Below, piece by piece: positions 16,147-64,000 of a stretch of DNA of 64,000 nt (position 1 is its first letter; the number at the start of each line of letters is the position of its first letter). This DNA is from a virus. The position numbers and the translations under genes were made by a program. Location of the stretch: the IMG/VR virus record IMGVR_UViG_3300009081_000012, positions 12,982 through 76,981 of that record. One strand, given 5' to 3'. The notes beneath the pieces are model-generated. The model was not told the DNA's origin, did not search any database, and saw only the letters and a program-made list of their open reading frames with translations.

Positions 16147-16149
16147 AAA

Positions 16150-17028: not shown

Positions 17029-17040
17029 AGAAGGAGAAGG

Positions 17041-22298: not shown

Positions 22299-22315
22299 TT
22301 TAATGGGGTGTTATT

Positions 22316-22906: not shown

Positions 22907-22924
22907 TATAGGAGTAATAACATT

Positions 22925-24989: not shown

Positions 24990-24992
24990 CAT

Positions 24993-26009: not shown

Positions 26010-26824
26010 AAGTTTTTGTATTAGGTCACAAAGGAATGCTAGGTAGGTATGTTTATACCTATTTGAAATCAAAAAACTATGATGTTGTAGGATTATCTCG
26101 TTCTGAAATAGATGCCTCATGTATTTCCAGTGTCGAATTAAAATCTAAATTATTAGATGTAGATTTTAATGAAGGAGATGTGGTTATAAATTGTATAGGC
26201 ATAATCAAAAGAAACGATGTTCCAAAAAAAGACTTCACTGCGGTTAACACTGTTTTTCCACACACACTTGCTTATGTTTGTGAACGTGTTGGAGCAGAAC
26301 TTATACACGTTAGTACAGATTGTGTTTATGATGGTCTTGAAGGAAATTATAATGAGAATCATGTACATACTGCAAAAGATTTGTATGGTATAAGTAAATC
26401 AGAAGGAGAAATAGGTAATATCACAATAATACGAACATCTCTTATTGGTGAGGAGCTTGATCAACAACGTTCTTTAATAGAATGGATTAAATCCAACAAA
26501 AACAACACAGTTTCTGGTTATACTAATCATGTGTGGAACGGTATTACATGTTTACAGTTTGCCAAACTGTGTGATGAGATTATGGAAGAAGAACTTTTTT
26601 GGCGCGGAGTAAAACACATTACATCTCCATCTAAAATAACCAAACACGATTTGGTTAAACTTGTATCAGAGATTTATGAATTAAATGTCACTGTTATTCC
26701 TCATGAAACTGAAACAAAATGTGATAGGTCTTTATCCAGTGTTCGCGGAGAAATAGTGTTCAAGATTCCTGAGTTACGAGAACAACTAATAGAAATGAAA
26801 TCTTTTACACTTGACAAATACTAA
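26006..26824 (+). CDS. RmlD-like NDP-4-keto-6-deoxy sugar reductase (WbvR-like)
   Basis: G..GMLG, INCIG, STDCV.DG, DLYG.SK..GE, RTS.IG. Confidence 0.88.
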   Translation: MKVFVLGHKGMLGRYVYTYLKSKNYDVVGLSRSEIDASCISSVELKSKLLDVDFNEGDVVINCIGIIKRNDVPKKDFTAVNTVFPHTLAYVCERVGAELIHVSTDCVYDGLEGNYNENHVHTAKDLYGISKSEGEIGNITIIRTSLIGEELDQQRSLIEWIKSNKNNTVSGYTNHVWNGITCLQFAKLCDEIMEEELFWRGVKHITSPSKITKHDLVKLVSEIYELNVTVIPHETETKCDRSLSSVRGEIVFKIPELREQLIEMKSFTLDKY

Positions 26825-31143: not shown

Positions 31144-32223
31144 ATGCCTTATAAAATTTCTGGAACAAAAAATGACACAGCTACACTTTATGTAATTAAT
31201 GAGGCTGATGACATATTAGAAAAATACGTTGTAATAAGTGGAACTGGTGCTTATGAAATAGATTCACTATCAGAAGGAAAAAAGTTAATTATCGCTAAAA
31301 AATCAGATGGAGAGACTCTCGCGTTTGGATATGTGGATCCAATTAGCTATTCTTTTTCAGTTGATAGGGGTGTTTTTGCTGGTGGTTATGATGGGATGGG
31401 TGCTGGTACTGTTGTAAATACTGTAGATTATATAACTATCTCAACTACAGGAAACGCGTCTGATTTTGGTGATACACTTGCTCTAAAAGTCGCAACCGGG
31501 GCTTGTGCTAGTGATACCCGTGGTCTTTTCGGTGGTGGCGCTGATTTTGAATGGATGGCCACAAATGTAATTGAGTGTATAACAATAGCCACAGTTGGAA
31601 ATACGACTGATTTTGGTGATTTGACTATTGGTAGATATTATTTAGGATCCTGTTCAAATAATACAAGGGGTCTTTTTGCAGGCGGTGATACAGACTCTGA
31701 TGTAGTAGACACAATTGATTATGTGACAATAGCTTCATTAGGTAACGCTACTACGTTTGGATCATTACTTACAACTAAAACAGGCGTTGGAGCATGTGCT
31801 AGTAGTGTTAGAGGCGTTTTTGCTGGTGGTTCTGCAGGTGTTATAGAATATGTGACCATAGACACAACTGGTAATTCTGTGGATTTTGGTGACTTAGTTG
31901 GGGCAAGACAGTATGTAGCAGCATGCGCTAGTTCAACTAGAGGCGTGTTTGGTGGTAATGGTCCAACAACATCTAACGTTATAGACTACATAACAATAGC
32001 TACACTTGGAAATGCTATTGATTTTGGAGATTTAACTACTAGTAGAGCGTTTGTTGGTGCGTGTTCTAATAGTGTTCGAGGTGTTTTTGCCGGTAGCGAT
32101 CTTAGTAATGTCATTGACTATATAACCATTGCCACTGTTGGTAATGCGGTTGGTTTTGGAGATTTAACACTAGCAAGGGATGAGATAGCCGGATGTTCAG
32201 ACTGTCATGGAGGTTTAGTATAA
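31144..32223 (+). CDS. Six-repeat Kelch-like beta-propeller protein, probably virion or fibre
   Basis: 6x RG[VL]F[AG]G...IDY[IV]TI...GN..DFGDL; C-terminal SDCHGGL. Confidence 0.8.
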   Translation: MPYKISGTKNDTATLYVINEADDILEKYVVISGTGAYEIDSLSEGKKLIIAKKSDGETLAFGYVDPISYSFSVDRGVFAGGYDGMGAGTVVNTVDYITISTTGNASDFGDTLALKVATGACASDTRGLFGGGADFEWMATNVIECITIATVGNTTDFGDLTIGRYYLGSCSNNTRGLFAGGDTDSDVVDTIDYVTIASLGNATTFGSLLTTKTGVGACASSVRGVFAGGSAGVIEYVTIDTTGNSVDFGDLVGARQYVAACASSTRGVFGGNGPTTSNVIDYITIATLGNAIDFGDLTTSRAFVGACSNSVRGVFAGSDLSNVIDYITIATVGNAVGFGDLTLARDEIAGCSDCHGGLV

Positions 32224-32254
32224 TTCTTTAAAATAGGAAAAGGAGATTTTTATA

Positions 32255-33007
32255 ATGGAATTAAATTTAATGATAGCTACACCAGCTTATGGGGGCATGG
32301 TACATATAGATTATTTGGATTCAATGATAGCTCTTGTAAGAGGTGGAATGGAGCACGGTGTAGGAGTTGAAATAGTAACTATAGGGAATAACTCGTTGGT
32401 ACCGAAAGCAAGGGACACTTTAATTTCTTATTTTAATGAAAACAAGTCGTACACACATTTAATTTATATAGATGCTGATATCAAATTATCAAACGATACT
32501 ATTCCAGCACTATTAAAAAGAAATGTGGATGTTATAGGTTGTCCAGTACCTCTTAAAGGATACGACGAACAAGGACTTCCGGTCTTAAATGTTGGTAAAG
32601 TTTTTTCATTTGACGAAACCGGTTTGGCTGATGTTGAACATATAGGTAATGCTGTTTTAATGTTATCTAGAAAAGCCGTTACAGATATAATTTCTGTCTC
32701 AGAAAAATATGAGCACAATCCTCGTTTTTCGCGGGGAGAAAAATTAGTACAGACTAATTATGAGGTTTTTAAAATAGGTGTTGTAAATGGTAATTACTTA
32801 CCAGAAGATTATTATCTGTGTTATCGATTAAGACAGCTTGGTTACAAGATATATGCCGACTATTCAAAAATACCAAGACATAACGGTATGTATGGTTTTG
32901 AAGTTAATAATAATCAATTAAATGGTTTATTTAATAAATACCTCAATAAACCAATTGTTCCAAAAGTGGTGTCGTTACTAGATAAACTAAATAAAGTTAA
33001 AAAATAA
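32255..33007 (+). CDS. GT-A glycosyltransferase
   Basis: IATPAYGG, SLV..AR, IDADI (DxD), EDY..C.R. Confidence 0.8.
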   Translation: MELNLMIATPAYGGMVHIDYLDSMIALVRGGMEHGVGVEIVTIGNNSLVPKARDTLISYFNENKSYTHLIYIDADIKLSNDTIPALLKRNVDVIGCPVPLKGYDEQGLPVLNVGKVFSFDETGLADVEHIGNAVLMLSRKAVTDIISVSEKYEHNPRFSRGEKLVQTNYEVFKIGVVNGNYLPEDYYLCYRLRQLGYKIYADYSKIPRHNGMYGFEVNNNQLNGLFNKYLNKPIVPKVVSLLDKLNKVKK

Positions 33008-33047
33008 AGCGTGTGTGTAAAGACTTGAATAAGGGAGATCAAAACAA

Positions 33048-34439
33048 ATGCCTTATAAAATTTCTGGAACAAAAAATCAGACAGCAATACTTTATGTAAT
33101 TGACGAACTTAATAACACATTAGAGAAACATACTACAATAAGTGGAGCAGGGTCGTACGAAGTAAATGATCTTTCAGGAGGAAGAAAGTTAATTTTAGCT
33201 AGAAAAATAGACGGCGAAACTCTTGGTTATGGATATGTAGATCCAATTAGTTATGTTGTGTTATCAACAGTAACTACTCAGGCAGTTTCATCTATAACTA
33301 GTTCCAGTTTTATTGGTAATGGTAATATAACAGATACGGGCGGCGCCAACTGTACCAGACGTGGTTTCTGTTATATGCTTGGTACTTCAGGTGATCCAAC
33401 CACAGCAAACTCAACGGCTTACGATGATGGTAGTTTTGGAACAGGCCCTTACACAAAAACAGTAGAGGGTTTATTAAGTTCAACTAGTTATAGAGTTAGG
33501 GCTTATGCGGTTAACACCATTGGAACTTCCTATGGAACAACCGTTCAGGCCGAAACTGCTGCCGAAGAAGCAGCAGGAATAGATAGGGGAGTGTTTGCTG
33601 GAGGATGGACCGGATCAAATCAAAACTATATAGATTATATAACAATATCTACCACAGCAAATGCCACAGATTTTGGGGATCTGTCACTAACAAGGTATGG
33701 TCAGGCAGGATGTGCTTCTTCTACAAGAGGAATATTTGGCGGAGGTTGGACAACAGCATCTGTTAATACTATAGATTATATAACAATTGCTACGATTGGA
33801 AATGCTATAGATTTTAGTGATTTAAGTGTTAAAAGAAACTATATCGCGGCTTGTTCAAATAATACCATAGGGGTGTTTGGTGGTGGTACACTAACCGCCA
33901 ACGTTAATACTATTGATTACATTACAATAGCCTCTCCATCAAACGCAACCGATTTTGGAGATCTAACTGCTACAACAAGAGCTATGGCTGGATGTGCTTC
34001 ACCAACAAGAGGATTGTTTGGAGGAGGTACTGTTATTGGTGTTACTGATAAAGTGGAGTATATTACTATATCCACCCCAGGCAATGCTTCAGTATTTGGT
34101 TATTTAACTGCAGCCAGAACTGCCATATGCTCATGTTCCTCATCAACAAGAGGCGTTTTCGCTGGTGGAAGCTCGACATCTAATATCATAGACTATGTAA
34201 CCATAAATTCAACAGGAAATGCTGCTGATTTTGGTGATTTAACAATAGCACGATATAACGGAGCTGCTTGCACAAATAGCACTAGAGGGGTGTTTGGTGG
34301 AGGATATAATTCGTCTAATAATAACACTATTGATTATATCACTATTGCAACCGTTGGAAATGCTACAGACTTTGGTGATATGTCATTCCTCAGATCACGA
34401 TATGGTGGTTGTTCAGATTGCCATGGTGGTTTATCTTAA
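33048..34439 (+). CDS. Beta-propeller paralog with an inserted FN3-like domain
   Basis: Same N-domain and six repeats as 31144; insert TVTT...GL...TSYRVRAYAVN..GTSYG. Confidence 0.8.
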   Translation: MPYKISGTKNQTAILYVIDELNNTLEKHTTISGAGSYEVNDLSGGRKLILARKIDGETLGYGYVDPISYVVLSTVTTQAVSSITSSSFIGNGNITDTGGANCTRRGFCYMLGTSGDPTTANSTAYDDGSFGTGPYTKTVEGLLSSTSYRVRAYAVNTIGTSYGTTVQAETAAEEAAGIDRGVFAGGWTGSNQNYIDYITISTTANATDFGDLSLTRYGQAGCASSTRGIFGGGWTTASVNTIDYITIATIGNAIDFSDLSVKRNYIAACSNNTIGVFGGGTLTANVNTIDYITIASPSNATDFGDLTATTRAMAGCASPTRGLFGGGTVIGVTDKVEYITISTPGNASVFGYLTAARTAICSCSSSTRGVFAGGSSTSNIIDYVTINSTGNAADFGDLTIARYNGAACTNSTRGVFGGGYNSSNNNTIDYITIATVGNATDFGDMSFLRSRYGGCSDCHGGLS

Positions 34440-52634: not shown

Positions 52635-52826
52635 ATGAGTGATATAGATATTACAACACCACCGTGGTGGATAGGTCCTGTTACAGATGACTACACAAGA
52701 TCAAGATCTGCCGGAGCTACATATAATGCAGAAGATTTGATAGGGAGAAGGGACTATATAAAATATAAACTGGTTACCAGTGATCCGACCACCGTGTCAG
52801 GTGTTCCTGGAACTGTGTTAATATAA
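52635..52826 (+). CDS. Small putative virion protein
   Basis: AAGGAGG SD, upstream of the portal; TTVSG motif. Confidence 0.6.
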   Translation: MSDIDITTPPWWIGPVTDDYTRSRSAGATYNAEDLIGRRDYIKYKLVTSDPTTVSGVPGTVLI

Positions 52827-52842
52827 TTAGGGGGTTTTACTA

Positions 52843-54711
52843 ATGGAAAAAGAAACCTTGGAAAAGGTAACTAATGATATAAAGGAGAAATATCCAGAGA
52901 TTGGTATTAAATCTATAGAAGTAAATAACTCTACTGGACAATCTACTTTTTATATCGAACCTACTAAAAAAAGTTTAGCTTTTTTGGATGCCGGTAAAGG
53001 AGGAGTTACACCAAGAATATTCAATGAGCGTGCTTCTGTGATAACCAGAGACTATGTTCAAAGGCAAAATTTAGATTTAATAAGCAAAGACGCATATACA
53101 GAAGAGCCAAAAGAATCTTTCAAGCGAGCAATAAGATATTATTATATAGATCCTTTGGTAGGTGCTTCTACAAATATTTTTGCTAATCTCTCCAGAAAAG
53201 GGTTTGAGAATGACATAGATGATGAAAATATAAAACAGTTTTATGATGTTTGGGCACAAGATGTCGGATTTGACGAGGTGCTTGAGTGGATATTTTTAGA
53301 TTTCTTTAAGGTTGGGCATGTTACAACCTACAAAGTATTATCTAAATATGAACCAAGAGTATCATATTTGTCTCCTGTTCCAGGAAAGAAACTAAAAACT
53401 AACAAAGCAAAAGGTGAAGAAACAGGTGCTAAAAAGAATACGTGGTCGAAGGGATATTTACCTGTTGCATACACAGTATTAAATCCGTTGTTGGTTAGTG
53501 TTACTGGTAATTTATTATTTGATAAATCATCGGTATCACTGGTCCCACCGCCGGAATTAAAAGAATTATTAAAAAAGAAAAGTTCTGATTTGTCGCAGGC
53601 AGAAAAGGATCTTATTAAAGCCCTTCCGGCGGAATTGAAAAAAGCTGCTGAAAATAATAAAGAGTATATATTAGATTCTTCACTTGTTGGACAAATAACT
53701 TATAGAAAACAACCATATGAGCGTTATGCAAAACCAAGATCTACACGGATATTTGAATCTATAGAATATAAAAATTCATTAAAACAAGCTGATTTAAGTA
53801 CACTAGATGGTATAACTAATTATATTCTAAAGATAACTATAGGTAATGATGAGTATCCTGTTGTATCACAGACTGAATTAGAAGCAGCTGCAAAGTTGTT
53901 TGATACGCCAAGTAAATCGTTTGATGTTGTTTGGAACCACACACTGCAGGTAGAAAAAATAGTTTCTCCTGAAATAGATAAAATACTTGGTAAAGGTAAA
54001 TATGAGCAAGTTAATAACGATATGACCACTGGTTTAGCCATGACTAGGGCTATTATTGATGGTGGTGGAGATAGTGTTAACGCTTCTGTTATTGAATTAC
54101 TAATAAAAGGATTGATGGAAGAAATAAACTATGCTCGTAGACAGGTTACTAGATGGATTTATAAAGAGTATCAACAGATAGCAGAAGCTATGGGATTTGA
54201 ACGTTATCCAAAGGTAAGATGGGATGACGGTGTGTTGTTAGATACCATACTTCATATAAACACCCTCTCCCAGCTCGTGGATCGCAGGATGCTCAGTTAT
54301 AGAACAGCTCTTGAAGGGCTGGGGTATGATTATCCAAACGAACTAAAGAACATGGAAGAAGAACTCCCTCTTGTAAAGGCTGGCACTTTTGGAATTTTGG
54401 GTTCTCCGTTTCAAAAAGCAGCAAACAGTGGTCCAGTACCAACAGGTACTCCTTCTTCAGGACCACCAAAAGGACAGGTAAAAGACAAAAATTTAGAGCC
54501 AAAGACAGTTAAAAAATCAGATGTATCGCCAAATCAAAATAAAAAGAATAAATTAGTTAAACAGGCAGCCTCTCTTGATATAGATTCTATCAAAAACATG
54601 ACTGCTTCTGAATATGCTGTTTTTTTAGATAGTGCTAAAAATAATTTATCAGACAAAGAATATGCTGAATTTTTAGATACTGTTGGTAAAATTAGATATG
54701 GTGAGCAGTAA
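52843..54711 (+). CDS. Portal protein
   Basis: Position between TerL and the protease; size; helical body with a low-complexity C-terminus. Confidence 0.75.
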   Translation: MEKETLEKVTNDIKEKYPEIGIKSIEVNNSTGQSTFYIEPTKKSLAFLDAGKGGVTPRIFNERASVITRDYVQRQNLDLISKDAYTEEPKESFKRAIRYYYIDPLVGASTNIFANLSRKGFENDIDDENIKQFYDVWAQDVGFDEVLEWIFLDFFKVGHVTTYKVLSKYEPRVSYLSPVPGKKLKTNKAKGEETGAKKNTWSKGYLPVAYTVLNPLLVSVTGNLLFDKSSVSLVPPPELKELLKKKSSDLSQAEKDLIKALPAELKKAAENNKEYILDSSLVGQITYRKQPYERYAKPRSTRIFESIEYKNSLKQADLSTLDGITNYILKITIGNDEYPVVSQTELEAAAKLFDTPSKSFDVVWNHTLQVEKIVSPEIDKILGKGKYEQVNNDMTTGLAMTRAIIDGGGDSVNASVIELLIKGLMEEINYARRQVTRWIYKEYQQIAEAMGFERYPKVRWDDGVLLDTILHINTLSQLVDRRMLSYRTALEGLGYDYPNELKNMEEELPLVKAGTFGILGSPFQKAANSGPVPTGTPSSGPPKGQVKDKNLEPKTVKKSDVSPNQNKKNKLVKQAASLDIDSIKNMTASEYAVFLDSAKNNLSDKEYAEFLDTVGKIRYGEQ

Positions 54712-54745
54712 ACAAAACAGCTAAATAAACTAACGGAGATTACAA

Positions 54746-55861
54746 ATGAACGACAATAAAAATAAATTTTATTTAACGGCTAATATTAAATTAGAAAAAG
54801 AAACAGCTTTATTGAAAGAAAAAGCGACACAGGCTATAAAATTACCAAGCGGTGCAGAAAAACAGCCAGATCTTTTATATTTTTCAGCTATTTTTGTGTC
54901 ATCTGGAGAAAATTTGAATCATGCTTATTTCATGGGTTCTGAGTTGGTGGCTGCTGAAGGTACTATAATTAATAAAGCTCTGGATGTAGAACACGAAGAG
55001 CAGAACATAATAGGTGCTATTTATGACAGAGCTTTTTTGGACAAAGATGGTAATAGGATAGAAATATCTGAATTAGCATCGCATGATGTGGCTGGTTTGG
55101 ACAGTAAAGAGTTGCACATAGCTATAGCAGGTGTGGTGTATAAAAACAGATTTCCAAATGTAGCTAAAGAAGTAGCTGAAAACAAGTGGTGTGTATCGAT
55201 GGAATGTTATTTTCAGGACTTTGATGTTAAAGTAGGTAATGTGGTTATAAGCCGTAAAGAAGCAGAGGCTTTAGGTATAGCTTCTATAGAATCTGTAATA
55301 GGCAAATTAGCCAAAGTTGTAAAAAACGGCAAAGAAATAGCTGCTGATGTTTTAACTCGTGTATTAAGAGGAATTTGTTTTTCAGGCTGTGGAATAGTAA
55401 AGAATCCAGCCAACCCTGGTTCAATAATATTAGAAACAGCTAAAATTAAAAATGAAGATAAAGACGACGACAATGTTGTTATTTTTGATTATGACAAATT
55501 AAACATAAATGAAAATAATAATGTAACCTCTGATACAATAGAGGGAATTTCTAAAGATCAGGGTAGGGATGGCAGGTTTGATGACGCTGTGGGTATATGT
55601 GTTAGTTATAAACGCAGTGTTTCAGATAAACAAGGCAACATCATACAAAATGATTGGTGTAGTCGTTATGATAAAAGTTGTACATCTTTTTCTAGAGACA
55701 CGACTGACCCTGATTGTTTATATGTTAAAGACGTTCAACAAGTTGCTAAAGCACGAATAGATGTTTTACTTAAGGAAAAAGCTGCCAAGGACAAACGCGT
55801 TGAACTTCTAAATGAAGTACAAGCTGCTTTGCGTGAGGCAGTAAAAACTCAATCACGATAG
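54746..55861 (+). CDS. Prohead protease-like protein
   Basis: N.N...F...EL, D.EH...IG.I, VSMEC, F.G.G.V..PA. Confidence 0.75.
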   Translation: MNDNKNKFYLTANIKLEKETALLKEKATQAIKLPSGAEKQPDLLYFSAIFVSSGENLNHAYFMGSELVAAEGTIINKALDVEHEEQNIIGAIYDRAFLDKDGNRIEISELASHDVAGLDSKELHIAIAGVVYKNRFPNVAKEVAENKWCVSMECYFQDFDVKVGNVVISRKEAEALGIASIESVIGKLAKVVKNGKEIAADVLTRVLRGICFSGCGIVKNPANPGSIILETAKIKNEDKDDDNVVIFDYDKLNINENNNVTSDTIEGISKDQGRDGRFDDAVGICVSYKRSVSDKQGNIIQNDWCSRYDKSCTSFSRDTTDPDCLYVKDVQQVAKARIDVLLKEKAAKDKRVELLNEVQAALREAVKTQSR

Positions 55862-55873
55862 GAGGGTTAAAAA

Positions 55874-56293
55874 ATGCCGCAATTAAATGTGGGACAAACA
55901 GGAAGTTTAAAGAGCATTCCTAAACTTACAAAGATTAATGGAGATGACAACGCTAAAGCCATTTATCGTAATTTAGGAAATAACCATGCTTATCCATTTT
56001 TATGGGCAAGTGAGATTACTATTAGTGGTACGGAAGTTGTAGTTGCTAGTGGTATAAAATGGCATGGTTATGATTTGGCTACCTATGCTAATGTAACGAT
56101 TACTCCGTTAGCTGATCCTGGTGCTAATCGTTTATGGGTAGACAAAGACACAGCTACAAATGTTATTAAGATAAAAAGCTCAGCATCACAAAACAATTTA
56201 AAAATAGATGTTAAGTTCATGCTGGGTGAAGAGCTTGAGATAGTCGGTTTATATTGTAGAGGTAACAATGGTGCTACTCCAAGCTTGCCGTAA
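55874..56293 (+). CDS. Putative virion protein
   Basis: Beta-rich, in the head operon. Confidence 0.6.
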   Translation: MPQLNVGQTGSLKSIPKLTKINGDDNAKAIYRNLGNNHAYPFLWASEITISGTEVVVASGIKWHGYDLATYANVTITPLADPGANRLWVDKDTATNVIKIKSSASQNNLKIDVKFMLGEELEIVGLYCRGNNGATPSLP

Positions 56294-56444
56294 GTAGTAG
56301 TGTTTTAGTTGTTAGTAATCGAAAAACTAATTAAGGTTATGGAAAAGGGTTTTGTATTAAACTTTTGCTATTAATCGATATTCAGGTCGGTTAGGTTTTG
56401 GGTTACTTGTGATACATAAAATTTACAAGGAGGAAACTTAACTT

Positions 56445-57224
56445 ATGGAAGACAAAGATTTAAAGACACAGGTTGTTAAGATTGTTGACGGCCTGCTTAG
56501 TGACAAAGAAGAGGCTGAAATTCGTAAAAGAACTGAAATAGCTTTAAAGGAATCCGCCGATACGATTACAAATCTCACTACTGCTCTTGAAGAAAAGAAT
56601 GCAGAAGTGAGTGAGTTTGAAGGCAAAATTTCTGAAAAAGAAGCTACAATCCAGAAGCTTACACTAGAGCTTGAGGCGGCTCGAAAAGAACTGGAAGTTT
56701 CTAATACTAGTTTAGCCGAATCCAAAAATGAATTAGAAAAATTTATGAAGGACAGGGCTGCTGAAAAACGAATGGCAGAATTAATAGATGCTGGCGTTGC
56801 TCGTTCTGACAGAGAAAACCAGATGAACAAAGTAAGGGACTTAAGTGATGAAGACTTTGCATCTTATAAGGAAGAACTGGTATCTCTCAGAGAAGCCGTA
56901 AAAGCAGAGCTTGAAAAAGCTCGTTTAGAAGCAGAAAGTAACGCAAAGGCAGAGGCAGAAGCTATAGCTAAGGCTGCTGAAGAAAAAGTAGCCAAGGATG
57001 CTGCAGAAAAAGCAGCCGCAGAAAAAGCGGCAGCTGATAAAGAAGCTGCAGATAAACCCGCTGGACAAACTGCAGACACAGACACAGTAGTACAACCTGC
57101 ACAAATAACTCCAGGTCAGGCTATGATGGCTTCTTTGAATGTTGAACTTGTTCCTAAACCCGTTACAGCTAAATATGTAGAACTAGGTCAAGCTATGGCT
57201 GCTAAATGGAAGAAAAATAAATAA
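56445..57224 (+). CDS. Capsid scaffolding protein
   Basis: Long E/K/A coiled coil upstream of the capsid genes. Confidence 0.7.
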   Translation: MEDKDLKTQVVKIVDGLLSDKEEAEIRKRTEIALKESADTITNLTTALEEKNAEVSEFEGKISEKEATIQKLTLELEAARKELEVSNTSLAESKNELEKFMKDRAAEKRMAELIDAGVARSDRENQMNKVRDLSDEDFASYKEELVSLREAVKAELEKARLEAESNAKAEAEAIAKAAEEKVAKDAAEKAAAEKAAADKEAADKPAGQTADTDTVVQPAQITPGQAMMASLNVELVPKPVTAKYVELGQAMAAKWKKNK

Positions 57225-57258
57225 TGTTGATAAATAAGAATTAAGGAGGAAAAAGGAT

Positions 57259-57894
57259 ATGTTTATTCCAAGACATCCTGTTGTGGAAAATCAATTTTGT
57301 AGTTATGCTGCGGAAGCTGGTGGATCTGCTGGTATAGGTGGAGTTGTTGCTTATGCTGGTTCTGTTGTCTATCTTGATACTGATGCAGCTAATGAAGAGC
57401 CTATTGTAAAAAAGATGACATACGCTGCTGGTACTACTGGTAGTAAACCTGCGTTTGGTTTCTTAATGCAGAAGGTTAAAACAGGCTATCATCAGGTTCA
57501 TCCTGCTGGTTTCGTTATGCCTGGTGATCAAGGATCAAGTGATGTTATAGCTCAGCCTGCATATAATTCTTCAGGTGTTATTACTGGAACAAAAGCGGCT
57601 CCTGTTGGTGTAGCACATCTTGGTATTTGGGACACAGTTCACTACACATGTACATCTGTAGCAAGTGTGCCTACAGTTAAAATGTCACCTGGTGATTCGT
57701 TGTATGCTGCTGTAGATCAGGCAAAAGTAACAAACAATGTTACTGTTGCTGCAAATGATGCAGATCTTACCACAGGTGAAAATGCTGTTGCCACAGTTGT
57801 AGCACGCGTTATGAAAGGTGCAAGCCTTGCTAAATGTATTGCTAACGTTGCTAACACAACGCTGTATCCGATCAGAATTAAACTTTTGATTTAA
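57259..57894 (+). CDS. Head decoration or minor capsid protein
   Basis: Ala/Gly/Val-rich, directly before the major capsid gene. Confidence 0.6.
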   Translation: MFIPRHPVVENQFCSYAAEAGGSAGIGGVVAYAGSVVYLDTDAANEEPIVKKMTYAAGTTGSKPAFGFLMQKVKTGYHQVHPAGFVMPGDQGSSDVIAQPAYNSSGVITGTKAAPVGVAHLGIWDTVHYTCTSVASVPTVKMSPGDSLYAAVDQAKVTNNVTVAANDADLTTGENAVATVVARVMKGASLAKCIANVANTTLYPIRIKLLI

Positions 57895-57965
57895 ATTTAA
57901 AACTTTTGGATTAAAGCACGTATGTTTTTGTGCTTCCAATACTATGGATAGGAGGAGTTGTTAAA

Positions 57966-59035
57966 ATGGATCTTAATGAAATGCAAGCGCTGTTTAAAGA
58001 AACAGCTAATATTCACACACCTGAAGGACTAGCGGCTTATCGTGCTTTTGCTGCCGCGTTGACAGCTCCAATTTTGCAGAAAATAGAACTGGAATCAATT
58101 ATGAGACAGTTGTTTACTGTTGAGCGTTTGGCGCCCGGTGCACAGGCTGTTTATCCAGTTGCTGAAGATTTTGAGATCCCAGTTTGGGTTTTACCTGGAC
58201 TTGGTTATGTTGCTCAGAATTTTATTGAAGGTATCGGAGAAGAGGTTTACATTCCTACTTTCACTATAGATGCTTCTGCAGATTGGAAGATTTCGTACGC
58301 TAGAGATTCACGTATAGATATTGCACAGAGAGCGGCTGCCCGCGCTGCTAAAGATCTTGCTAATTATGAGGAAGAATGCGGTTGGCGTGTAGTTATGCCT
58401 GCTGTAACATCTTCATTTACTGGTAAAGGTCTTCTTGGCTCTCGTCCTGCACCTATATATGAGATTGTACCAAGCACAACCGGTGCTGGGTACCTTTCTA
58501 AGGAACTTATTAATAAAATGATTGTTGGTTTCAAGAGAATTGGTCGTACACTGACCGATCTTTATGTATCACCTGAAGATGCTGCTGATATCAGAGAGTG
58601 GACAGATACAGATATCGATCCAGTAACCCGAAGAGAAATTTTCCAGGCTTCCGGTATGGGATCTGTTTGGAATGTAAAACTTCACGAAATTCAGCATCTT
58701 GGAGCTACAGGTCTTTATAATATCAATGGTTACACATCGTCTTATGGAAAATTCATTGCTGATAGTGGAACAACTATAATGCATATTCCATTGACAATCC
58801 TAATCTTACCAATGCTGATGGTACTGTTGGTACACTTGGTGAAACCCAGGTTCTAGGATTTGATATGACAGACACAAGCTCTCTCGTGATGCCTATTCGT
58901 AAAGAATATGAAGCACACGATGATCCTACTCTACTTCGTGTTCAGAAACAGGGATTTTTTGGCTGGGCTGAACTAGGTTTTGGTTGTCTTGATAGTAGAA
59001 TGTTAGGAATGGGTGTTATTGATCGTTCTCTATAA
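57966..59035 (+). CDS. Major capsid protein (HK97 fold) with a 1-nt frameshift at ~58767-58771
   Basis: ATG 57966 after AGGAGG; the -1 frame from ~58769 reads NNYNAYSIDNP...MPIRK...GFFGWAELGFGCLDSR to TAA 59035 (~356 aa restored), then a terminator. Confidence 0.85.
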
Positions 59036-59047
59036 GAATTAACTAAT

Positions 59048-59095
59048 GGTATCTTACATTCCTTTTATGTCTGGAATGTAAGATACCTAGTTTTT
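59048..59095 (+). terminator. Intrinsic terminator after the capsid gene
   Basis: 15-bp inverted repeat GGTATCTTACATTCC/GGAATGTAAGATACC plus TTTTT. Confidence 0.85.
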
Positions 59096-59120
59096 AATTT
59101 AAAAAATTGGATATTGTTTA

Positions 59121-59465
59121 ATGTTTTTTAATAATCTAACTTGTATAATTATAGCGGTGGTAATTACAGAAGCTATAACAGAAATAGTGGTAAAGTCTGA
59201 ATTATTCATCCCGCTAAAAGCGAAAATGTTTGAACTTGGTAGGAATAATAGATTTTTTGAACGAGTCCATTATTTGCTTGATTGTGGTTATTGTTTTTCT
59301 GTCTGGGCAGGTATGCTTATGTCCATATTACTGTTAAACAATATAAATCTTGTTAACAAATATGTAGACTGGTTTTTGTTAGGTATTCTGGTACATAGAT
59401 TAGCAAATTTATTTCACAACATAATGGATAGAGTTCACAATATAGATAACGTTGGTAAAGGATAA
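59121..59465 (+). CDS. DUF1360-like membrane protein
   Basis: S..F.PL, LL.C.YC.SVW. Confidence 0.7.
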   Translation: MFFNNLTCIIIAVVITEAITEIVVKSELFIPLKAKMFELGRNNRFFERVHYLLDCGYCFSVWAGMLMSILLLNNINLVNKYVDWFLLGILVHRLANLFHNIMDRVHNIDNVGKG

Positions 59466-59505
59466 GGTACGTTTAAATAAAAGAAAATGACAAGGAGAAT
59501 ATAAT

Positions 59506-60009
59506 ATGAACGGCTATGTAATAAATATTAGTAAAACCTGGATGAACGCTATGAAACGAGCTGTAGGTCCAGGTGCAAAAATTCCTTTAAATGAATTATA
59601 TGAACAGTATGGTAAAAAACATAATTTGTCAGAAGGAACTGAATTTGTAGAATGGTTAAAAAATGTTAAACTTAAAGATCATGAAAGATGGAATATTGTA
59701 GTAAATGAACCATTACAAGAAAGTAAAGAATTAAGTAATGTTGTAGATACTAGTTCAGAAGACGCAACAACAAAGACAGAAAGCAGTACAAGTTTAAAAC
59801 CAACCAACGTGGTGCCCATGGTTCAACAAAAGATGAACGTGGCAGATCTGGTCGGATTATCAGTAAGACAGGCTAAGGCTATTTTACCAGACATAAAGGA
59901 TTTAAATCTTCTGAAGTACTCATTACAGGAAGCCAATCAGCTTACAGGAAAGGACAGTCTTTGTATATTAATAAGAAAAAGAATAAAAGAGATTCAAATC
60001 GCGCGATAG
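59506..60009 (+). CDS. Hypothetical protein
   Basis: AAGGAG SD; two domains with a linker. Confidence 0.7.
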   Translation: MNGYVINISKTWMNAMKRAVGPGAKIPLNELYEQYGKKHNLSEGTEFVEWLKNVKLKDHERWNIVVNEPLQESKELSNVVDTSSEDATTKTESSTSLKPTNVVPMVQQKMNVADLVGLSVRQAKAILPDIKDLNLLKYSLQEANQLTGKDSLCILIRKRIKEIQIAR

Positions 60010-60045
60010 ACTGTTTTAAATACTTGAAGTACGGAGGTATAGACA

Positions 60046-61623
60046 ATGTCTAGAAGTTTACTAAGACAACTAGAACAAATCAGGCGGGCAGAAATATACG
60101 ATGATGCTGTTGTAGATTTTAACACGTCTGCTGTAGCTGAACCTGTTATATCCGGTTCTCTAGAAGAAGATATGAACGTAATGCGTTCATTACTTAAGCA
60201 AGTTAAAGGTGGCACCAATTGGTTTGATGATCCTGGTAAATATTTTGATCCATCCAACACAACTAGTGGTGGCGCTGAGACTAAGCAGTTAAATTTAGCC
60301 AACATCAAGAATAACACACTTGATTCTAAAACGGTTTTAATTGCGGCTACTAATGATAATGCAGGTGTTGGTTTTACGGTATCAGGAACATCCACAGGTG
60401 TACTATTAGTTCCTTTTGATACTCGTTATGCTGATCCTGTTAACCGTGTTGGTTTGCCTATTTTCAAGAGTGTTGCAAATGCAGGCACATATTTTGATGA
60501 GGGTGGTACAGATAATGTTTGCCGTGTTGATGTTCTAAACAAAGCCACAGGTGTTGAGATGTCAAAAGTAACTGGTGGCTATACAGTTTATGGTAAATTA
60601 CACGACGCCGCAGATCATAGTGGTACTGGTGAAGGTGTTGATGTATTTATCAAGTTTTACGCTAATGGTGTAGAAACTGATCTGTCTGACATAGATGGTG
60701 GGGCTCCTACTGAAGTAGTTTTTGTACATCCATTCCGTAGAAAAATGTCTGACATGCTTGAGTATGAGTGGATGAGGACAGACTTTGTTAGCTCATGGCA
60801 GGGAGATATCGTTCTTATTGATGATATATCAAATTTGTGGAGTTATACTGGTGCCACAAACGATGCAACTAATCCAAGTCCGTGGACCAACGAAACTGCT
60901 TCTTATATTCTAAGTTCTTCTCCTGATTCGTTAAGAGCAGCTATAGACTTAATTAATACGGAAGTAGGTAGTAGGATATACACAGAGCACAATTATGCTG
61001 ATAGTGGTGACACTATTACAGATGCCATAGATGATTTAGACATGGCTTTGAAAGACGCTAATGATGCTATAGGCGGTCTTGATACACGTTTAGGTACAGC
61101 TGAAGGTGCTATAAGTACTCTTCAGGGCGATGTTAGTACATTACAAGGTGATGTTAGTACATTACAAGGCGAGATGTCGACAGTTCAGGGTGACATATCC
61201 GACATTTATGGTGAACTTAACACTATAAGTGGTACAATGATAGGTGATCTGATTTTCACCAACAATGATTTCTTCAGTGATGGTGATAGCATTACAAACA
61301 TATTTGAAGCTGTAGCTGATGCTTTAACAACTATATCTGGTGCTCTTGATGTGGCTGCTCCTGAAAAATATGTTGAATCTGTTTCTGTAGCCATAGATAA
61401 AAACACAGCACATAATACACCTGCTGCATATACACCAAGTTCAACCGCTAATAGAGAGGGTATGAATATGGATGTTTACGTTGATGGTCAGTTGCTTGCT
61501 GCAGATACTGGAGTTGATGGTGTAAACGCTGATAGAGACTATGCTGAAACTAGCACTACACAGATTACATTTAGATTCAATATTCAGGCAGGAAGAAACA
61601 TTACTTACGTTATTCGTCAATAA
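60046..61623 (+). CDS. Fibre or fibritin-like virion protein with a trimeric coiled coil
   Basis: Heptads ISTLQGD-VSTLQGD-VSTLQGE-MSTVQGD (21-bp DNA repeat at 61129-61169); C-terminal VYVDGQ...DY.E...ITF domain. Confidence 0.7.
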   Translation: MSRSLLRQLEQIRRAEIYDDAVVDFNTSAVAEPVISGSLEEDMNVMRSLLKQVKGGTNWFDDPGKYFDPSNTTSGGAETKQLNLANIKNNTLDSKTVLIAATNDNAGVGFTVSGTSTGVLLVPFDTRYADPVNRVGLPIFKSVANAGTYFDEGGTDNVCRVDVLNKATGVEMSKVTGGYTVYGKLHDAADHSGTGEGVDVFIKFYANGVETDLSDIDGGAPTEVVFVHPFRRKMSDMLEYEWMRTDFVSSWQGDIVLIDDISNLWSYTGATNDATNPSPWTNETASYILSSSPDSLRAAIDLINTEVGSRIYTEHNYADSGDTITDAIDDLDMALKDANDAIGGLDTRLGTAEGAISTLQGDVSTLQGDVSTLQGEMSTVQGDISDIYGELNTISGTMIGDLIFTNNDFFSDGDSITNIFEAVADALTTISGALDVAAPEKYVESVSVAIDKNTAHNTPAAYTPSSTANREGMNMDVYVDGQLLAADTGVDGVNADRDYAETSTTQITFRFNIQAGRNITYVIRQ

Positions 61624-61649
61624 TAAGTAATATTTTTATTATAAATAAC

Positions 61650-61678
61650 TTGAGGGCCGGAATTTTTCCGGCCCTTAA
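61650..61678. terminator. GC-rich hairpin terminator
   Basis: TTGAGGGCCGGAA-TTT-TTCCGGCCCTTAA. Confidence 0.7.
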
Positions 61679-61712
61679 ATTAATAAATTAAAAGGAAAAG
61701 GAGATATAAATA

Positions 61713-62060
61713 ATGAGTGCATTAGAATTAAACGAAAGAGAAGAAAGAAATAATTTGAGAAGTGTTGTAATGAAAGCAGAAAGCAACAAATTAATATCAA
61801 AAGATGAAGTTAATTTAGTTGTTATGTTAGTTGAAAGATTTAGAACAGAAGCCGAGAAGAAGATGAGACAATTATATACACTTCAAGGTGAAGTTGCTCA
61901 ATTAAGAACAAATGAACAGGTTGTAATTAATTTGATAGAAAATATTATAGCTGCTGCAGAGAGAGATGTTGCGCGACAGGAAACTTTTTCCCAGATTAAA
62001 GAGACAAGGGAAGCAATAGCATCGAATAAGGAAGCAACACCTACTGAACAGACTAATTAG
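61713..62060 (+). CDS. Coiled-coil hypothetical protein
   Basis: AAGGAG SD. Confidence 0.7.
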   Translation: MSALELNEREERNNLRSVVMKAESNKLISKDEVNLVVMLVERFRTEAEKKMRQLYTLQGEVAQLRTNEQVVINLIENIIAAAERDVARQETFSQIKETREAIASNKEATPTEQTN

Positions 62061-62221
62061 TATCGATAAATGGATGAGAACATTATAGATTAAATACAAA
62101 CATAAAAGGATTTAATTAACATGGTTGAGACACCATCTCGAATTATAACTGTAATCAGTTGTCCTGCTGATAAAAGGTATAAATGCGTGGTGTTTCAGCC
62201 ATTTTTTTTGTTATAGGATAG

Positions 62222-62488
62222 TTGAGTATGATAATATTAAGAAAACTAAGTAAGGGTGCTACAAATATAGTTCTATCTGGTGTATTGATAGGTGCTACAA
62301 ACGCCTCTAACAAAGTATTTAATACAGAATATAATTATAAACCTGGTAAAATAACAGTTAATTACAACGGTCAGGAATTAGTAAGCCAAGAAGATTTTTA
62401 TGAAACTGGCACTAATGAAATAACACTTATTTATATAGCACCACTTGAAATAGATGTATTAAATGCAACATATGAGAGAGAGGCATAA
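62222..62488 (+). CDS. Small virion protein sharing the V..NGQ...DF.E...IT domain with 60046
   Basis: Motif similarity to the 60046 C-terminus. Confidence 0.6.
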   Translation: MSMIILRKLSKGATNIVLSGVLIGATNASNKVFNTEYNYKPGKITVNYNGQELVSQEDFYETGTNEITLIYIAPLEIDVLNATYEREA

Positions 62489-62493
62489 AGCAA

Positions 62494-62838
62494 ATGGGTA
62501 GAAGCGTTCTTAGAGAAGAGCAGGTATTAGATACCGAATTTGTATCTCCAGAAGAGCACGAAGCTTTACACGATTATGATAAATATATAGAAATAATAAG
62601 AGAAGGTAATAAAGTAGTTGCTATCAATGAATGGAGAGATTCCACAAAAACATTTATGATTTCATCTACAGCAATTGAACGAACAGGTGCTAAAGTGTCT
62701 AAAACAATAAAAACAATTTATGATTATTACGATGGTGTTTCTGTGGTAGCTACCGTAACTGGAACTATATACAGACAAGAAGGCAATAGCGTATCGAGTA
62801 TAGAATTTATACGAGATGTAGATATGGAGGGTATTTAA
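62494..62838 (+). CDS. Putative virion protein
   Basis: Beta-rich, in a structural operon. Confidence 0.6.
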   Translation: MGRSVLREEQVLDTEFVSPEEHEALHDYDKYIEIIREGNKVVAINEWRDSTKTFMISSTAIERTGAKVSKTIKTIYDYYDGVSVVATVTGTIYRQEGNSVSSIEFIRDVDMEGI

Positions 62839-62840
62839 CA

Positions 62841-64000
62841 ATGTTCAATATAGTGGAAGGTGAAATACAATTAGTTGATAAAAATGGTGTTTCTCTTGCA
62901 ACAGTTAGTGGGGCTAACGGACCTATGTTGGAAGTATCTTCTGCTATATCTGTGGATGCTACAATTTCGGGTATAGAAGGAGAAGTTAAAGTACGGGAAC
63001 AGAATTTAGACATCGATGGTTATATAAGAAATTCAGCACACAATTATGGTCAGTATGAAGGAACATGGACTCCGTTTGCTGTAGATTCAGAGGGGCGCCA
63101 AAGATTAGTTATTGATACAGCAGTAACTCCTCACGCTATAAATGGAACACAACATACAGGTATATTGGATGATTTTCAAATTCCTTCTAATATAACAAGA
63201 GACGAAGAATTAAATACAGTTTCTGGATCGTTACAAGAACAAATAGATAACATGTCTGTTGGAATAGTAGCGCACTCTAGTTTAACAAATTTAGATTATG
63301 CTTCATCTGGGCATACTGGTTTTCAGCCTGCTGGTAGTTATGCCACTACAGAAGATTTAGCTACTACAAGTGGAGCATTGCAGGATCAGATAGATAGTTT
63401 TTCTGGTATGGAAGATCATGGTAATGAATGGCATAATGTAGATTTTATAACAGATGTTGAATTCACAACAGCTTCTGGTGTATTACAAGATCAAATTGAT
63501 GCTATAGTTATTCCAACTGATTTTTATTCGCGCGTGGAAGTTGATACTATTATTTCAACTACTTCTGGCACACTACAAGATGAAATAGATGCTATCCCAG
63601 CAGGTATAACAGCACATTCTGATTTATCTGAATTAGATTACGTTTCTGCTGGCCACACAGGATTTCAACCAGCTGGTGATTATACAACATATGCGGAATT
63701 AACATCTGTATCAGGCGCACTACAAGATCAGATAGACAGTTTTGAAGGAATGGGAATGCATGGAAATGAATGGCATTCTACTGCTTTTACTACAGAAAAT
63801 TATGTTGATAGTGTTTCTGGTACTCTACAAAATCAAATAGATTCTATACCAACACATCATAACAATCTGTATGGATTACAGGGTGGTATTTCAAACGAGT
63901 ACTATCATTTAACTGACGCACAGTACACAAACATATCTGGTGGAAATCCTGTATTTAATTCAATCACTGCCACACACTATGGTGATGGTTCATATTTGAC
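62841..64000 (+). CDS. Repeat-containing fibre protein (runs off window end)
   Basis: Manual translation open to the end; repeats T.SG.LQ.QID (6x), HS.L..LDY.S.GHTGFQPAG (2x), HGNEWH (2x), GLQGG...EYYHLT. Confidence 0.8.
   Translation, partial: MFNIVEGEIQLVDKNGVSLATVSGANGPMLEVSSAISVDATISGIEGEVKVREQNLDIDGYIRNSAHNYGQYEGTWTPFAVDSEGRQRLVIDTAVTPHAINGTQHTGILDDFQIPSNITRDEELNTVSGSLQEQIDNMSVGIVAHSSLTNLDYASSGHTGFQPAGSYATTEDLATTSGALQDQIDSFSGMEDHGNEWHNVDFITDVEFTTASGVLQDQIDAIVIPTDFYSRVEVDTIISTTSGTLQDEIDAIPAGITAHSDLSELDYVSAGHTGFQPAGDYTTYAELTSVSGALQDQIDSFEGMGMHGNEWHSTAFTTENYVDSVSGTLQNQIDSIPTHHNNLYGLQGGISNEYYHLTDAQYTNISGGNPVFNSITATHYGDGSYL

What the first reader, a model, noticed from the sequence alone, without database searches (positions are those of the whole stretch)
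52635..64000. Recurring [T/V]-[V/I/T]-S-G motif across unrelated virion proteins: a candidate glycosylation sequon
Seen: TVSG, TISG, TTSG and VISG-type motifs occur five times in non-repetitive contexts in 60046 (VISG, TTSG, TVSG, TISG, TISG). They occur about nine times in the 62841 fibre (TVSG, TISG, TVSG, TTSG, TASG, TTSG, SVSG, SVSG, NISG), and also in 52635 (TVSG), 55874 (TISG), 62222 (VLSG), 31144 (VISG), 33048 (TISG) and 34494 (ITSG). They are only sporadic in the enzymes and absent from the major capsid and portal proteins. Known: Ser-Gly is an O-glycosylation acceptor in other systems, and some phages glycosylate their virions. Inference: these serines are acceptors for the 15.6-26.8 kb machinery, giving a sequon-directed glycan shield on fibres and decoration proteins.
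Basis: inference. Interest (0 to 1): 0.85.

Follow-up and report, generated by a model that had tools for sequence, protein, structure and literature searches.

The report
Thr-x-Ser-Gly tag on phage fibres
The four-residue motif Thr-(Val/Ile/Leu/Thr)-Ser-Gly is about ten times too frequent in the fibre and outer tail proteins of this uncultured large phage and its relatives. The larger contigs of this lineage all carry sugar-transferase gene islands, so the motif may mark where the phage attaches sugars to its own particle. No sugar has been seen, and a purely structural role is almost as likely.

Summary
In the window, [TV][VIT]SG occurs 16 times against 2.3 expected, and 10 of those are in the fibre-like proteins 60046 and 62841.

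The signal is a hallmark of the whole lineage, a group of uncultured phages of roughly 260-280 kb:
- In 77 de-replicated fibre-region proteins, TISG, TVSG and TLSG are the most over-represented of all tetrapeptides.
- T[VILT]SG occurs 42 times against 3.4 expected.
- The permuted order (…GS) and single substitutions (…TG, …NG, …SA) stay at about 1-2x.
- Codon usage at the motif equals background, so selection acts on the protein.
- Enzymes, capsid and portal are not enriched. Unrelated phage fibres (1.2x) and lambda are not enriched either.

- Six copies in 62841 are one repeated unit (T-x-S-G-x-L-Q-x-Q-I-D), a widespread tail-fibre repeat.
- 31144 and 33048 are paralogues, so their sites count once.

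The glycosylation reading is plausible but unproven (about 0.4). The lineage carries glycosyltransferase islands with a conserved methyltransferase plus GT-A pair. However, an unrelated complete phage with homologous island genes has no motif, and no relative without an island was available. A structural module signature is the main rival (about 0.35).

Earlier notes of this scan describe analogous clade-specific serine motifs on other phage DNA.

The parts
60046..61623 (+). 525-aa fibre-like virion protein. It has a conserved N-terminal 340 aa, a long coiled coil (about residues 324-397) and a small C-terminal beta domain. Motif sites lie at residues 34, 72, 111, 393 and 429 (nt 60145-60156, 60259-60270, 60376-60387, 61222-61233, 61330-61341).
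   Evidence: ORF and motifs. There are more than 300 homologues. Sites 34 and 111 are nearly invariant, the others lineage-specific, and the motif occupies 24 alignment columns across the family. AF2 model pLDDT is 67. Fold hits are to tail fibre and tailspike proteins; residues 440-525 resemble CBA120 TSP4 189-250 at Z 8.4.
62841..63998 (+). Fibre protein, cut by the end of the contig after 386 aa. Nine T/S/N-x-S-G sites lie at residues 21, 41, 126, 175, 210, 240, 289, 324 and 364. Six of them (126-324) are the start of one repeated unit, T-x-S-G-x-L-Q-x-Q-I-D, interleaved with an H-S-x-L-x-x-L-D-Y-x-S-x-G-H-T-G-F-Q-P unit.
   Evidence: 92 homologues carry the same repeat (for example E-V-D-T-I-S-G-S-L-Q-T-N-I-D), and some of them hit Pfam PF12789 PTR and PF18454 Mtd_N. 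The window protein itself has no Pfam hit. The AF2 model is poor, pLDDT 52.
52635..52829 (+). 65-aa ORF between the genes at 51649 and 52843 (portal), with TVSG at residues 53-56.
   Evidence: A homologue lies at the same place in G002.
55874..56293 (+). 139-aa head-module protein with TISG at residue 49 and VASG at residue 57.
   Evidence: The family carries 8 motifs in 29 homologues.
62222..62488 (+). 88-aa protein with VLSG at residue 17.
   Evidence: The family carries 12 strict motifs in 20 homologues.
31144..34439 (+). Paralogous genes 31144-32223 and 33048-34439 (both phrog_19111, function unknown). Each has [VT]-I-S-G at residue 30 in the same N-terminal context, so this is one event rather than two.
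15643..26824 (+). Sugar island. It holds seven GT-A-type glycosyltransferases, three methyltransferases, a PseB/FnlA-like 4,6-dehydratase, an RmlD-like reductase, a WecB-like 2-epimerase and a short SDR. It is the proposed writer of the tag. Only its first two genes (methyltransferase 15643, GT-A 16150) are conserved in relatives.
   Evidence: Pfam and NCBIfam. Conservation of 15643 and 16150 in G002, G010, G011, G045 and G046.

Best explanation
T-(V/I/L/T)-S-G is a short linear motif kept by selection on the fibre and outer tail proteins of one lineage of uncultured phages of roughly 260-280 kb. This 77-kb contig is a fragment of one of them. The motif sits mostly where a beta-strand ends in a turn, or just before a helix.

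My preferred reading is that it is a tag read in the cytoplasm by a phage enzyme, and that its serine is O-glycosylated by the lineage's glycosyltransferase island. In this reading the conserved methyltransferase plus GT-A pair (15643/16150) acts first, and the variable transferases extend the glycan with N-acetyl-hexosamine-derived deoxy sugars.

Shown here:
- the motif, its size and its order- and residue-specificity;
- selection at the protein level;
- restriction to fibre-type proteins and to this lineage;
- turnover of sites within one fold;
- the presence of the sugar islands.

Inferred, not shown:
- that any enzyme reads the motif;
- that the serine is modified;
- that the island acts on protein rather than on DNA, lipid or host polysaccharide.
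For: (1) An unbiased scan of all exact tetrapeptides in 77 de-replicated fibre-region proteins ranks TISG (16 against 0.8), ISGT, TVSG (12 against 0.8) and TLSG first.

(2) Specificity. T[VILT]SG is 42 against 3.4. Thr, Ala, Asn or Gly in place of Ser give 0.6-2x. Any other residue in place of Gly gives about 1x. Ser in place of the first Thr gives 1.8x. The order …GS gives 1.1x.

(3) Shuffles that keep local composition in 10-, 20- and 40-residue windows still give 42 against 3.7-4.8.

(4) Codon usage at the motif equals background, and both the TCN and AGY serine codon families are used, so this is not a DNA motif.

(5) Module- and lineage-specificity.
- G002 structural block 4.2x, rest of the genome 1.0x.
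- G003 downstream of the 60046 homologue 7.7x, upstream 1.1x.
- Zero or one motif in all capsid, portal and neighbouring head-gene families.
- G021, G023, G026, G045 and G046, all of the same lineage, 4.5-11x.
- 73 unrelated phage fibre loci 1.2x, lambda 1.2x.

(6) Outside the recognisable repeat modules there are still 39 motifs against 5.2 expected.

(7) In the 60046 family the motif averages 3 per protein against 0.24 expected. It occupies 24 different alignment columns, some present only in sublineages (column 215 in 41 of 120 sequences, column 503 in 46 of 120). The serine is in coil or turn in 19 of 24 columns, against a 50% baseline.

(8) Every lineage record over 110 kb that was searched holds a GT island with a 16150 homologue.
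Against: - No modification has been observed, and no tool here can observe one.
- 200 of 347 motif windows fall into one network of related fibre modules, against 101 of 347 for random windows.
- In the PTR-like repeat, anchored only on its downstream half, Ser and Gly are each 98% and Thr never replaces Ser.
- Site 34 of 60046 lies inside a run of about 12 nearly invariant residues, which looks like an interface rather than a glycosite.
- The complete, unrelated 145-kb phage G043 shares the island genes (16150 homologue at 33% identity) but has 0 motifs against 2.9 expected.
- Non-virion proteins of the lineage are not depleted of the motif (ratio about 1.0, low counts).
- The island lies among early or middle genes, next to a Dam methylase and a nuclease, and could serve another acceptor.
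Confidence: 0.4

Rival explanations
1. Structural signature. T-x-S-G is the strand-end, tight-turn or helix-start element of the small set of modules from which this lineage builds its fibres: T-I-S-G-x-L-Q-x-x-I-D, T-I-S-G-x-L-D-D-H and T-V-S-G-V-x-P-x4-H-L-x-T-K-x-Y-V-D. It spread by module duplication, shuffling and divergence. No enzyme reads it.
For: - Six of the nine copies in 62841 are one repeat.
- The same repeat occurs in 92 homologues from many contigs, and some hit Pfam PTR.
- 58% of motif windows form one phmmer network, twice the share for random windows.
- Ser, Gly and the hydrophobic positions of the repeat are equally invariant, with no Ser-to-Thr exchange.
- Sites 34 and 111 of 60046 are conserved like the core of the protein.
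- G043 has the island genes but no motif.
- From my own memory, not tested here: adenovirus and reovirus triple beta-spiral shafts have a similar x-T-x-[STA]-G-x-L turn signature.
Against: - Outside the module network the motif is still about 7x enriched, in contexts with no detectable similarity.
- Spacing is irregular, with no period.
- The usual turn formers N-G and D-G are not enriched behind T-phi.
- Unrelated phage fibres do not show it.
- Within one fold (60046) the motif appears and disappears at many loop positions.
- The local structure after S-G differs between contexts: helix in the repeat, strand elsewhere.
Confidence: 0.35
2. A tag for something other than sugar. For example, a docking motif for a fibre chaperone or assembly factor, or a site for another serine modification such as phospho-form, acyl or cross-link.
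For: The features that point to a selected short linear motif apply here too: specificity, protein-level selection, loop location, turnover and restriction to fibre proteins.
Against: No candidate reader was identified in the window. The only lineage-wide enzyme set with an unexplained acceptor is the sugar island.
Confidence: 0.15
3. No real feature. The excess comes from chance, amino-acid composition, pattern picking after the fact, or an underlying DNA motif.
For: The pattern was defined after seeing the data and was loosened case by case (VLSG, ITSG, NISG). Outside 60046 and 62841 the window alone gives only 6 against 2.05, and two of those six are paralogous.
Against: - The unbiased 4-mer scan ranks the motif first.
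- Permuted and substituted controls stay near 1x.
- Local shuffles and Markov expectations do not remove the excess.
- Codon usage equals background.
- The excess is replicated in eight further records of the lineage.
Confidence: 0.02

Closest known systems
Virion O-glycosylation of mycobacteriophages by phage-encoded glycosyltransferases (Freeman et al. 2023, known to me here only through its summary in PMC12619734)
   Same: A phage carries its own glycosyltransferases, with methyltransferases alongside, and would modify its own virion proteins in the cytoplasm.
   Different: In that system the glycans sit at the C-termini of the capsid and tail-tube subunits. Here the capsid has no motif, and the candidate sites are internal, biased to the N-terminal halves of fibre proteins, and defined by a four-residue motif. 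No glycan has been shown here.
Bacterial autotransporter heptosyltransferases (TibC/TibA, AAH/AIDA-I; PMC4358343)
   Same: Cytoplasmic hyper-O-glycosylation of many serines in a repetitive, fibrous beta-structured protein, at short recurring 'heptosylation motifs' in loops.
   Different: The enzyme there is a dodecameric GT-B heptosyltransferase with an iron finger. The window's island contains only GT-A-type families (GT2, GT32-like, GT10-like) and no such enzyme. The substrate here is a phage fibre, not an adhesin.
Pfam PF12789 PTR, 'phage tail repeat like'
   Same: Homologues of 62841 with the same T-I-S-G-x-L-Q-x-x-I-D units score above the PTR cut-off, so this part of the signal is an already catalogued fibre repeat.
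   Different: 62841 itself gives no PTR hit even at E = 10. PTR has no solved structure that I could find by sequence. Most motif copies in the lineage lie outside PTR-like units.
Ser-Gly acceptor sites of eukaryotic xylosyltransferase and EOGT, and atypical sequons of giant-virus glycosylation (chloroviruses, mimiviruses). From my own knowledge, not checked here.
   Same: An acceptor serine followed by glycine, and virus-encoded cytoplasmic glycosylation with virus-specific acceptor motifs and rare N-acetylated deoxy sugars.
   Different: The enzyme families, hosts and sequence contexts are different. These are analogies only.

Membership tests
Enzyme-read sequon (generic criteria) | Over-representation in target proteins beyond composition, local composition and repeats | tested here: met
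   42 against 3.4-4.8 in de-replicated proteins. 39 against 5.2 outside the module network.
Enzyme-read sequon (generic criteria) | Order- and residue-specific motif, selected at the protein level | tested here: met
   Permutations and single substitutions give about 1-2x. Codon usage equals background.
Enzyme-read sequon (generic criteria) | Acceptor exposed on the folded protein | tested here: inconclusive
   The serine is in coil or turn in 19 of 24 motif columns of the 60046 model. The model has pLDDT 67, with residues 1-93 below 50, it is a monomer, and no solvent accessibility could be computed.
Enzyme-read sequon (generic criteria) | Motif and enzyme inherited together; motif decays where the enzyme is absent | tested here: inconclusive
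   All lineage records over 110 kb that were searched hold a 16150 homologue. No island-free complete relative was found. Unrelated G043 has island genes but 0 motifs against 2.9 expected.
Enzyme-read sequon (generic criteria) | Modification observed on the motif residue | not testable with these tools
   Needs mass spectrometry of virions or of co-expressed proteins.
Mycobacteriophage-type virion glycosylation | Phage-encoded glycosyltransferases | tested here: met
   Seven GT-A-type genes plus sugar-nucleotide enzymes at 15.6-26.8 kb.
Mycobacteriophage-type virion glycosylation | Acceptors at the C-termini of the capsid and tail-tube subunits | tested here: not met
   The capsid protein 57930 and its 43 homologues have no motif. 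Motifs are biased to the N-terminal halves of fibre proteins.
Pfam PF12789 PTR (phage tail repeat like) | Score above the curated cut-off of 27 bits | tested here: not met
   62841 has no PTR hit at E up to 10. Its homologues P0123, P0124, P0126 and P0127 score 32-47 bits.
BAHT (TibC/AAH) serine hyper-glycosylation | GT-B heptosyltransferase with iron-finger motif encoded next to its substrate | tested here: not met
   The island proteins match only GT2, GT32-like (Gly_transf_sug) and GT10 families.

The most novel reading that the evidence does not exclude
A whole lineage of uncultured phages of roughly 260-280 kb writes a four-residue O-glycosylation sequon, T-(V/I/L/T)-S-G, into the exposed turns of its fibre and outer tail proteins. 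It reads the sequon with a conserved methyltransferase plus GT-A pair, and a variable set of further transferases extends the product. That would give a strain-variable glycan coat on the host-recognition apparatus. It would be the first sequon-directed protein glycosylation system described in tailed phages.
Probability: 0.38. Interest if true: 0.85.

Novelty: new variant of a known kind. Interest (0 to 1): 0.62.

Why it matters
If the serines are glycosylated, several things follow.
- The receptor-binding organelles of an abundant group of uncultured large phages would be sugar-coated in a way that can be read directly from sequence.
- That would bear on host recognition, on escape from host defences and grazers, and on particle stability.
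- It would suggest an acceptor for one of the many unexplained glycosyltransferase islands of aquatic phages.
- It would provide a four-residue tag for glyco-engineering.

If the motif is structural, it is still the strongest tetrapeptide signature of these fibres and a handle for recognising outer virion proteins in phage 'dark matter'.

Earlier notes of this scan report different short serine motifs in the outer tail proteins of other phage clades. The phenomenon may therefore be general and worth one decisive experiment.

Tried and rejected
- **DNA-level motif:** rejected. Codon usage at the motif equals background.
- **Composition or local-composition artefact:** rejected.
- **Generic beta-turn preference:** not supported. 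T-phi-N-G, T-phi-D-G, T-phi-T-G and T-phi-G-S are near 1x. Unrelated fibres are at 1.2x, lambda 1.2x and MSTV1 1.7x on tiny counts.
- **'Relatives lacking the GT cluster':** tblastn first suggested that G002 lacks 12 of the 14 island genes. Family searches then showed that it has its own island of GT32-like, GT2-like and two GT1 genes. This test is therefore not available.
- **Records with motif-rich fibres and no GT hit** (G023 and others) are fragments, 3-55% complete.
- **MSTV1 as a GT-free carrier of the repeat:** the match was to another part of the fibre, and the motif is absent.
- **The search for related loci with P0127** seeded on other peptides and returned mostly fibres without the motif. 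I used these as controls.
- **A DNA pattern for D-T-I-S-G-x-L-Q-x-x-I-D** gave 12 loci, all from records that are incomplete.
- **Searches that found nothing:**
  - Sequence searches of the PDB with 62841, the 60046 family, P0127 and 16150.
  - The phage collection, which holds no relative of 60046 or of the fibre.
  - A literature search for TVSG/TISG with phage.
- **The AF2 model of 62841** is too poor to use beyond secondary structure (pLDDT 52).
- **Freeman et al. 2023** is not held in the library.
- **Complex prediction** was not used. An enzyme-substrate pair or a fibre trimer score would not show modification.
Full report
**What the window is.** The window is the last 64 kb of a 76,981-bp viral contig that is not closed.
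- Relatives share a syntenic block from about 36 kb to 62 kb of the window (ClpP-like gene, actin-like gene, terminase, portal, capsid, the 60046 gene).
- CheckV estimates attached to those relatives are 234 kb = 89% and 77 kb = 28%. They put the full genome at roughly 260-280 kb.
- No cultured phage in the collection resembles it. TerL is about 26% identical to that of Bacillus phages, and 60046 and the fibre have no match.
- Genes 15643-26824 form a real sugar island. It holds seven GT-A-type glycosyltransferases, three methyltransferases, a PseB/FnlA-like 4,6-dehydratase, an RmlD-like reductase and a WecB-like 2-epimerase.

**The observation in the window.**
- Strict [TV][VIT]SG occurs 16 times in 81 ORFs against 2.3 expected.
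- Markov-1 expectations (0.33 and 0.52) and local shuffles do not change this.
- The other 79 ORFs give 6 against 2.05 (p = 0.016, post hoc). Two of those six are the same site in the paralogues 31144 and 33048.
- Six copies in 62841 are the first four residues of one internal repeat, T-x-S-G-x-L-Q-x-Q-I-D.
- Taken alone, the window supports 'two motif-rich fibre proteins' rather than 'many unrelated proteins'.

**What the two proteins are.**
- 60046 belongs to a very large family, with more than 300 metagenomic homologues, none named. The N-terminal 340 residues are 50-60% identical across the family and the C-terminal part is variable.
- Its AF2 model (pLDDT 67) shows a beta-sandwich at residues 96-240, a long helix at 324-397 and a small beta domain at 440-525.
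- That small domain resembles the attachment domains of podophage fibres and of CBA120 TSP4 (Z 8.4, rmsd 1.6 over 62 residues). This is a moderate match. BFVD hits are tail fibres and tailspikes.
- 62841 is cut by the contig end. Its 92 homologues are built from the same units, for example E-V-D-T-I-S-G-S-L-Q-T-N-I-D.
- Some of these homologues score for Pfam PTR (PF12789) and Mtd_N. 62841 itself does not.

**The lineage-wide signal.** I fetched 53 loci around 60046 homologues and several whole records.
- In the fibre-region ORFs with no homologue in the window, [TV][VIT]SG occurs 205 times against 19.2 expected, or 10.7x.
- The controls in the same proteins are flat:
  - [TV][VIT]GS gives 1.1x.
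  - [TV][VIT]xG with x = T, N, A or G gives 1.3-1.4x.
  - [TV][VIT]Sx with x other than G gives 1.0-1.4x.
- After clustering to 77 representatives (22.6 thousand residues), a scan of all exact tetrapeptides puts TISG, ISGT, TVSG and TLSG at the top.
- The refined motif is T (12x; S only 1.8x) - V/I/L/T/S/A - S (12x; T 2x) - G (12x) - T/V/L.
- Shuffling within 10-, 20- or 40-residue windows leaves 42 against 3.7-4.8.
- Codons at the motif follow background usage, with TCN and AGY serines in normal proportion. Selection is therefore on the peptide.

**Where it is and is not.**
- In G002 the structural block (80-200 kb) is 4.2x enriched and the rest of the genome 1.0x. In G003 the part from the 60046 homologue onward is 7.7x and the upstream part 1.1x.
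- Families of the capsid, portal and neighbouring head genes have 0-1 motifs in 3,000-14,000 residues each.
- G021, G023, G026, G045 and G046 share 21-56 ORFs with G002 or the window. They show 7.7x, 9.5x, 11x, 4.5x and 7.1x.
- In 78 fibre loci of other phages the excess came from five loci, 43 against 2.4. These five carry T-I-S-G fibres and, by their CheckV figures, may be fragments of similarly large genomes (kinship to this lineage was not tested).
- The other 73 loci give 37 against 29.8. Lambda gives 2 against 1.7.
- The motif is therefore not a general property of phage fibres.

**Repeat modules or independent sites?** Both.
- With phmmer on windows of 25 residues either side, 200 of 347 motif windows join one network of related modules:
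  - T-I-S-G-x-L-Q-x-x-I-D;
  - T-I-S-G-x-L-D-D-H;
  - R-G-F-T-x-T-V-S-G-V-x-P-x4-H-L-x-T-K-x-Y-V-D.
  For random windows from the same proteins the figure is 101 of 347.
- Outside that network the representatives still hold 39 motifs against 5.2 expected, in contexts with no detectable similarity.
- Spacing is irregular.
- In the 60046 family the motif averages 3 per protein against 0.24 expected and occupies 24 alignment columns. Occupancy is 110/120 at column 34, 78/120 at 111, 46/120 at 503, 41/120 at 215 and 32/120 at 72, and the rest are sporadic.
- In the model the serine is in coil or turn in 19 of 24 columns, against a 50% baseline, often right after a strand. Half of those sites lie in low-confidence parts of the model.

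**Link to the sugar island.**
  - G002 lacks 12 of the window's 14 island genes. It has its own island next to homologues of 15643 and 16150.
  - G010, G011, G045 and G046 also carry a 16150 homologue.
  - The lineage therefore has a conserved methyltransferase plus GT-A pair with a variable remainder.
- This layout would suit a conserved acceptor with a variable glycan, but it does not identify the acceptor.
- The only independent data point goes the other way.
  - G043 is a complete 145-kb phage with terminal repeats.
  - It shares only island genes with the lineage, including a 16150 homologue at 33% identity.
  - It has 0 motifs against 2.9 expected.
- Non-virion proteins of the lineage are not depleted of the motif, though counts are small.

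**Weighing.**
- For a selected tag:
  - the specificity for S-G behind T-phi;
  - the absence of the usual turn dipeptides;
  - the restriction to one lineage;
  - the excess outside modules;
  - the turnover of sites in loops of one fold.
- For a structural signature:
  - the large share of copies in conserved modules;
  - the equal invariance of Ser and Gly, with no Ser-to-Thr exchange;
  - the embedding of site 34 in a run of 12 invariant residues;
  - the G043 result.
- My estimates are: glycosylation sequon 0.40, structural signature 0.35, another kind of tag 0.15, artefact 0.02.

**Comparison with what is known.**
- Phage-encoded virion glycosylation is known from mycobacteriophages. There it sits at the C-termini of capsid and tail-tube subunits (summary in PMC12619734). 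That defining feature is not met here.
- Cytoplasmic hyper-glycosylation of serines at short motifs in fibrous proteins is known for TibC/AAH autotransporter systems (PMC4358343), but with a different enzyme class.
- Part of the signal is the catalogued PTR fibre repeat.
- Earlier notes of this scan describe other short serine motifs ([ST]-[GAS]-S, D-S-A, D-T-G, phi/T-S-A/G) enriched in the outer tail proteins of other phage clades that carry sugar genes. I did not test those claims, and they are not independent evidence. They suggest the phenomenon may be general.

Noticed in passing
window 15643-17028; G002 65.9-67.3 kb (L057); G010 (L162 9821-10732); G046: Only the first two genes of the 14-gene sugar island (a class I methyltransferase and a GT-A protein with an invariant E-D-D) are conserved across the lineage. 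The rest of the island is replaced in relatives: GT1 genes in G002, G010 and G011, against GT2, GT32 and GT10 genes here. This is a conserved core with a variable periphery, like a serotype locus.
   Followed up: partly
L066-L069 (G003) about 34.0-35.3 kb and 43.8-44.2 kb: In relative G003 the terminase and capsid homologues align only in part. TerL aligns at residues 158-581 and the capsid protein at residues 148-280, and the genes are spread over more DNA than in the window. This suggests insertions (introns, inteins or homing elements) or split genes.
   Followed up: no
L187-L194 (G043, complete 145-kb phage with terminal repeats): One or more proteins contain about 90 copies of a unit holding E-Q-T-P-E-I-C-L-E/A-A (PEIC 90 against 0.1 expected). 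This is an extreme cysteine-containing tandem repeat in a phage that shares only sugar-island genes with this lineage.
   Followed up: no
L059-L061 (G002 119,997-142,853, minus strand): A single open reading frame of 7,619 residues lies in the structural block of the near-complete relative. It is not enriched in the motif (2 against 1.5).
   Followed up: no
   Followed up: partly
window 31144-34439: 31144 and 33048 are paralogues (phrog_19111, function unknown) with near-identical N-terminal 45 residues. Homologues sit in G023 and G026 next to the ClpP and actin-like block. Whether they are virion proteins is unknown.
   Followed up: partly
window 1-4000: The first 4 kb have 40% G+C and negative GC skew, with genes on the minus strand. 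The rest of the window has 30-36% G+C and positive skew. This marks a module or strand-switch boundary.
   Followed up: no
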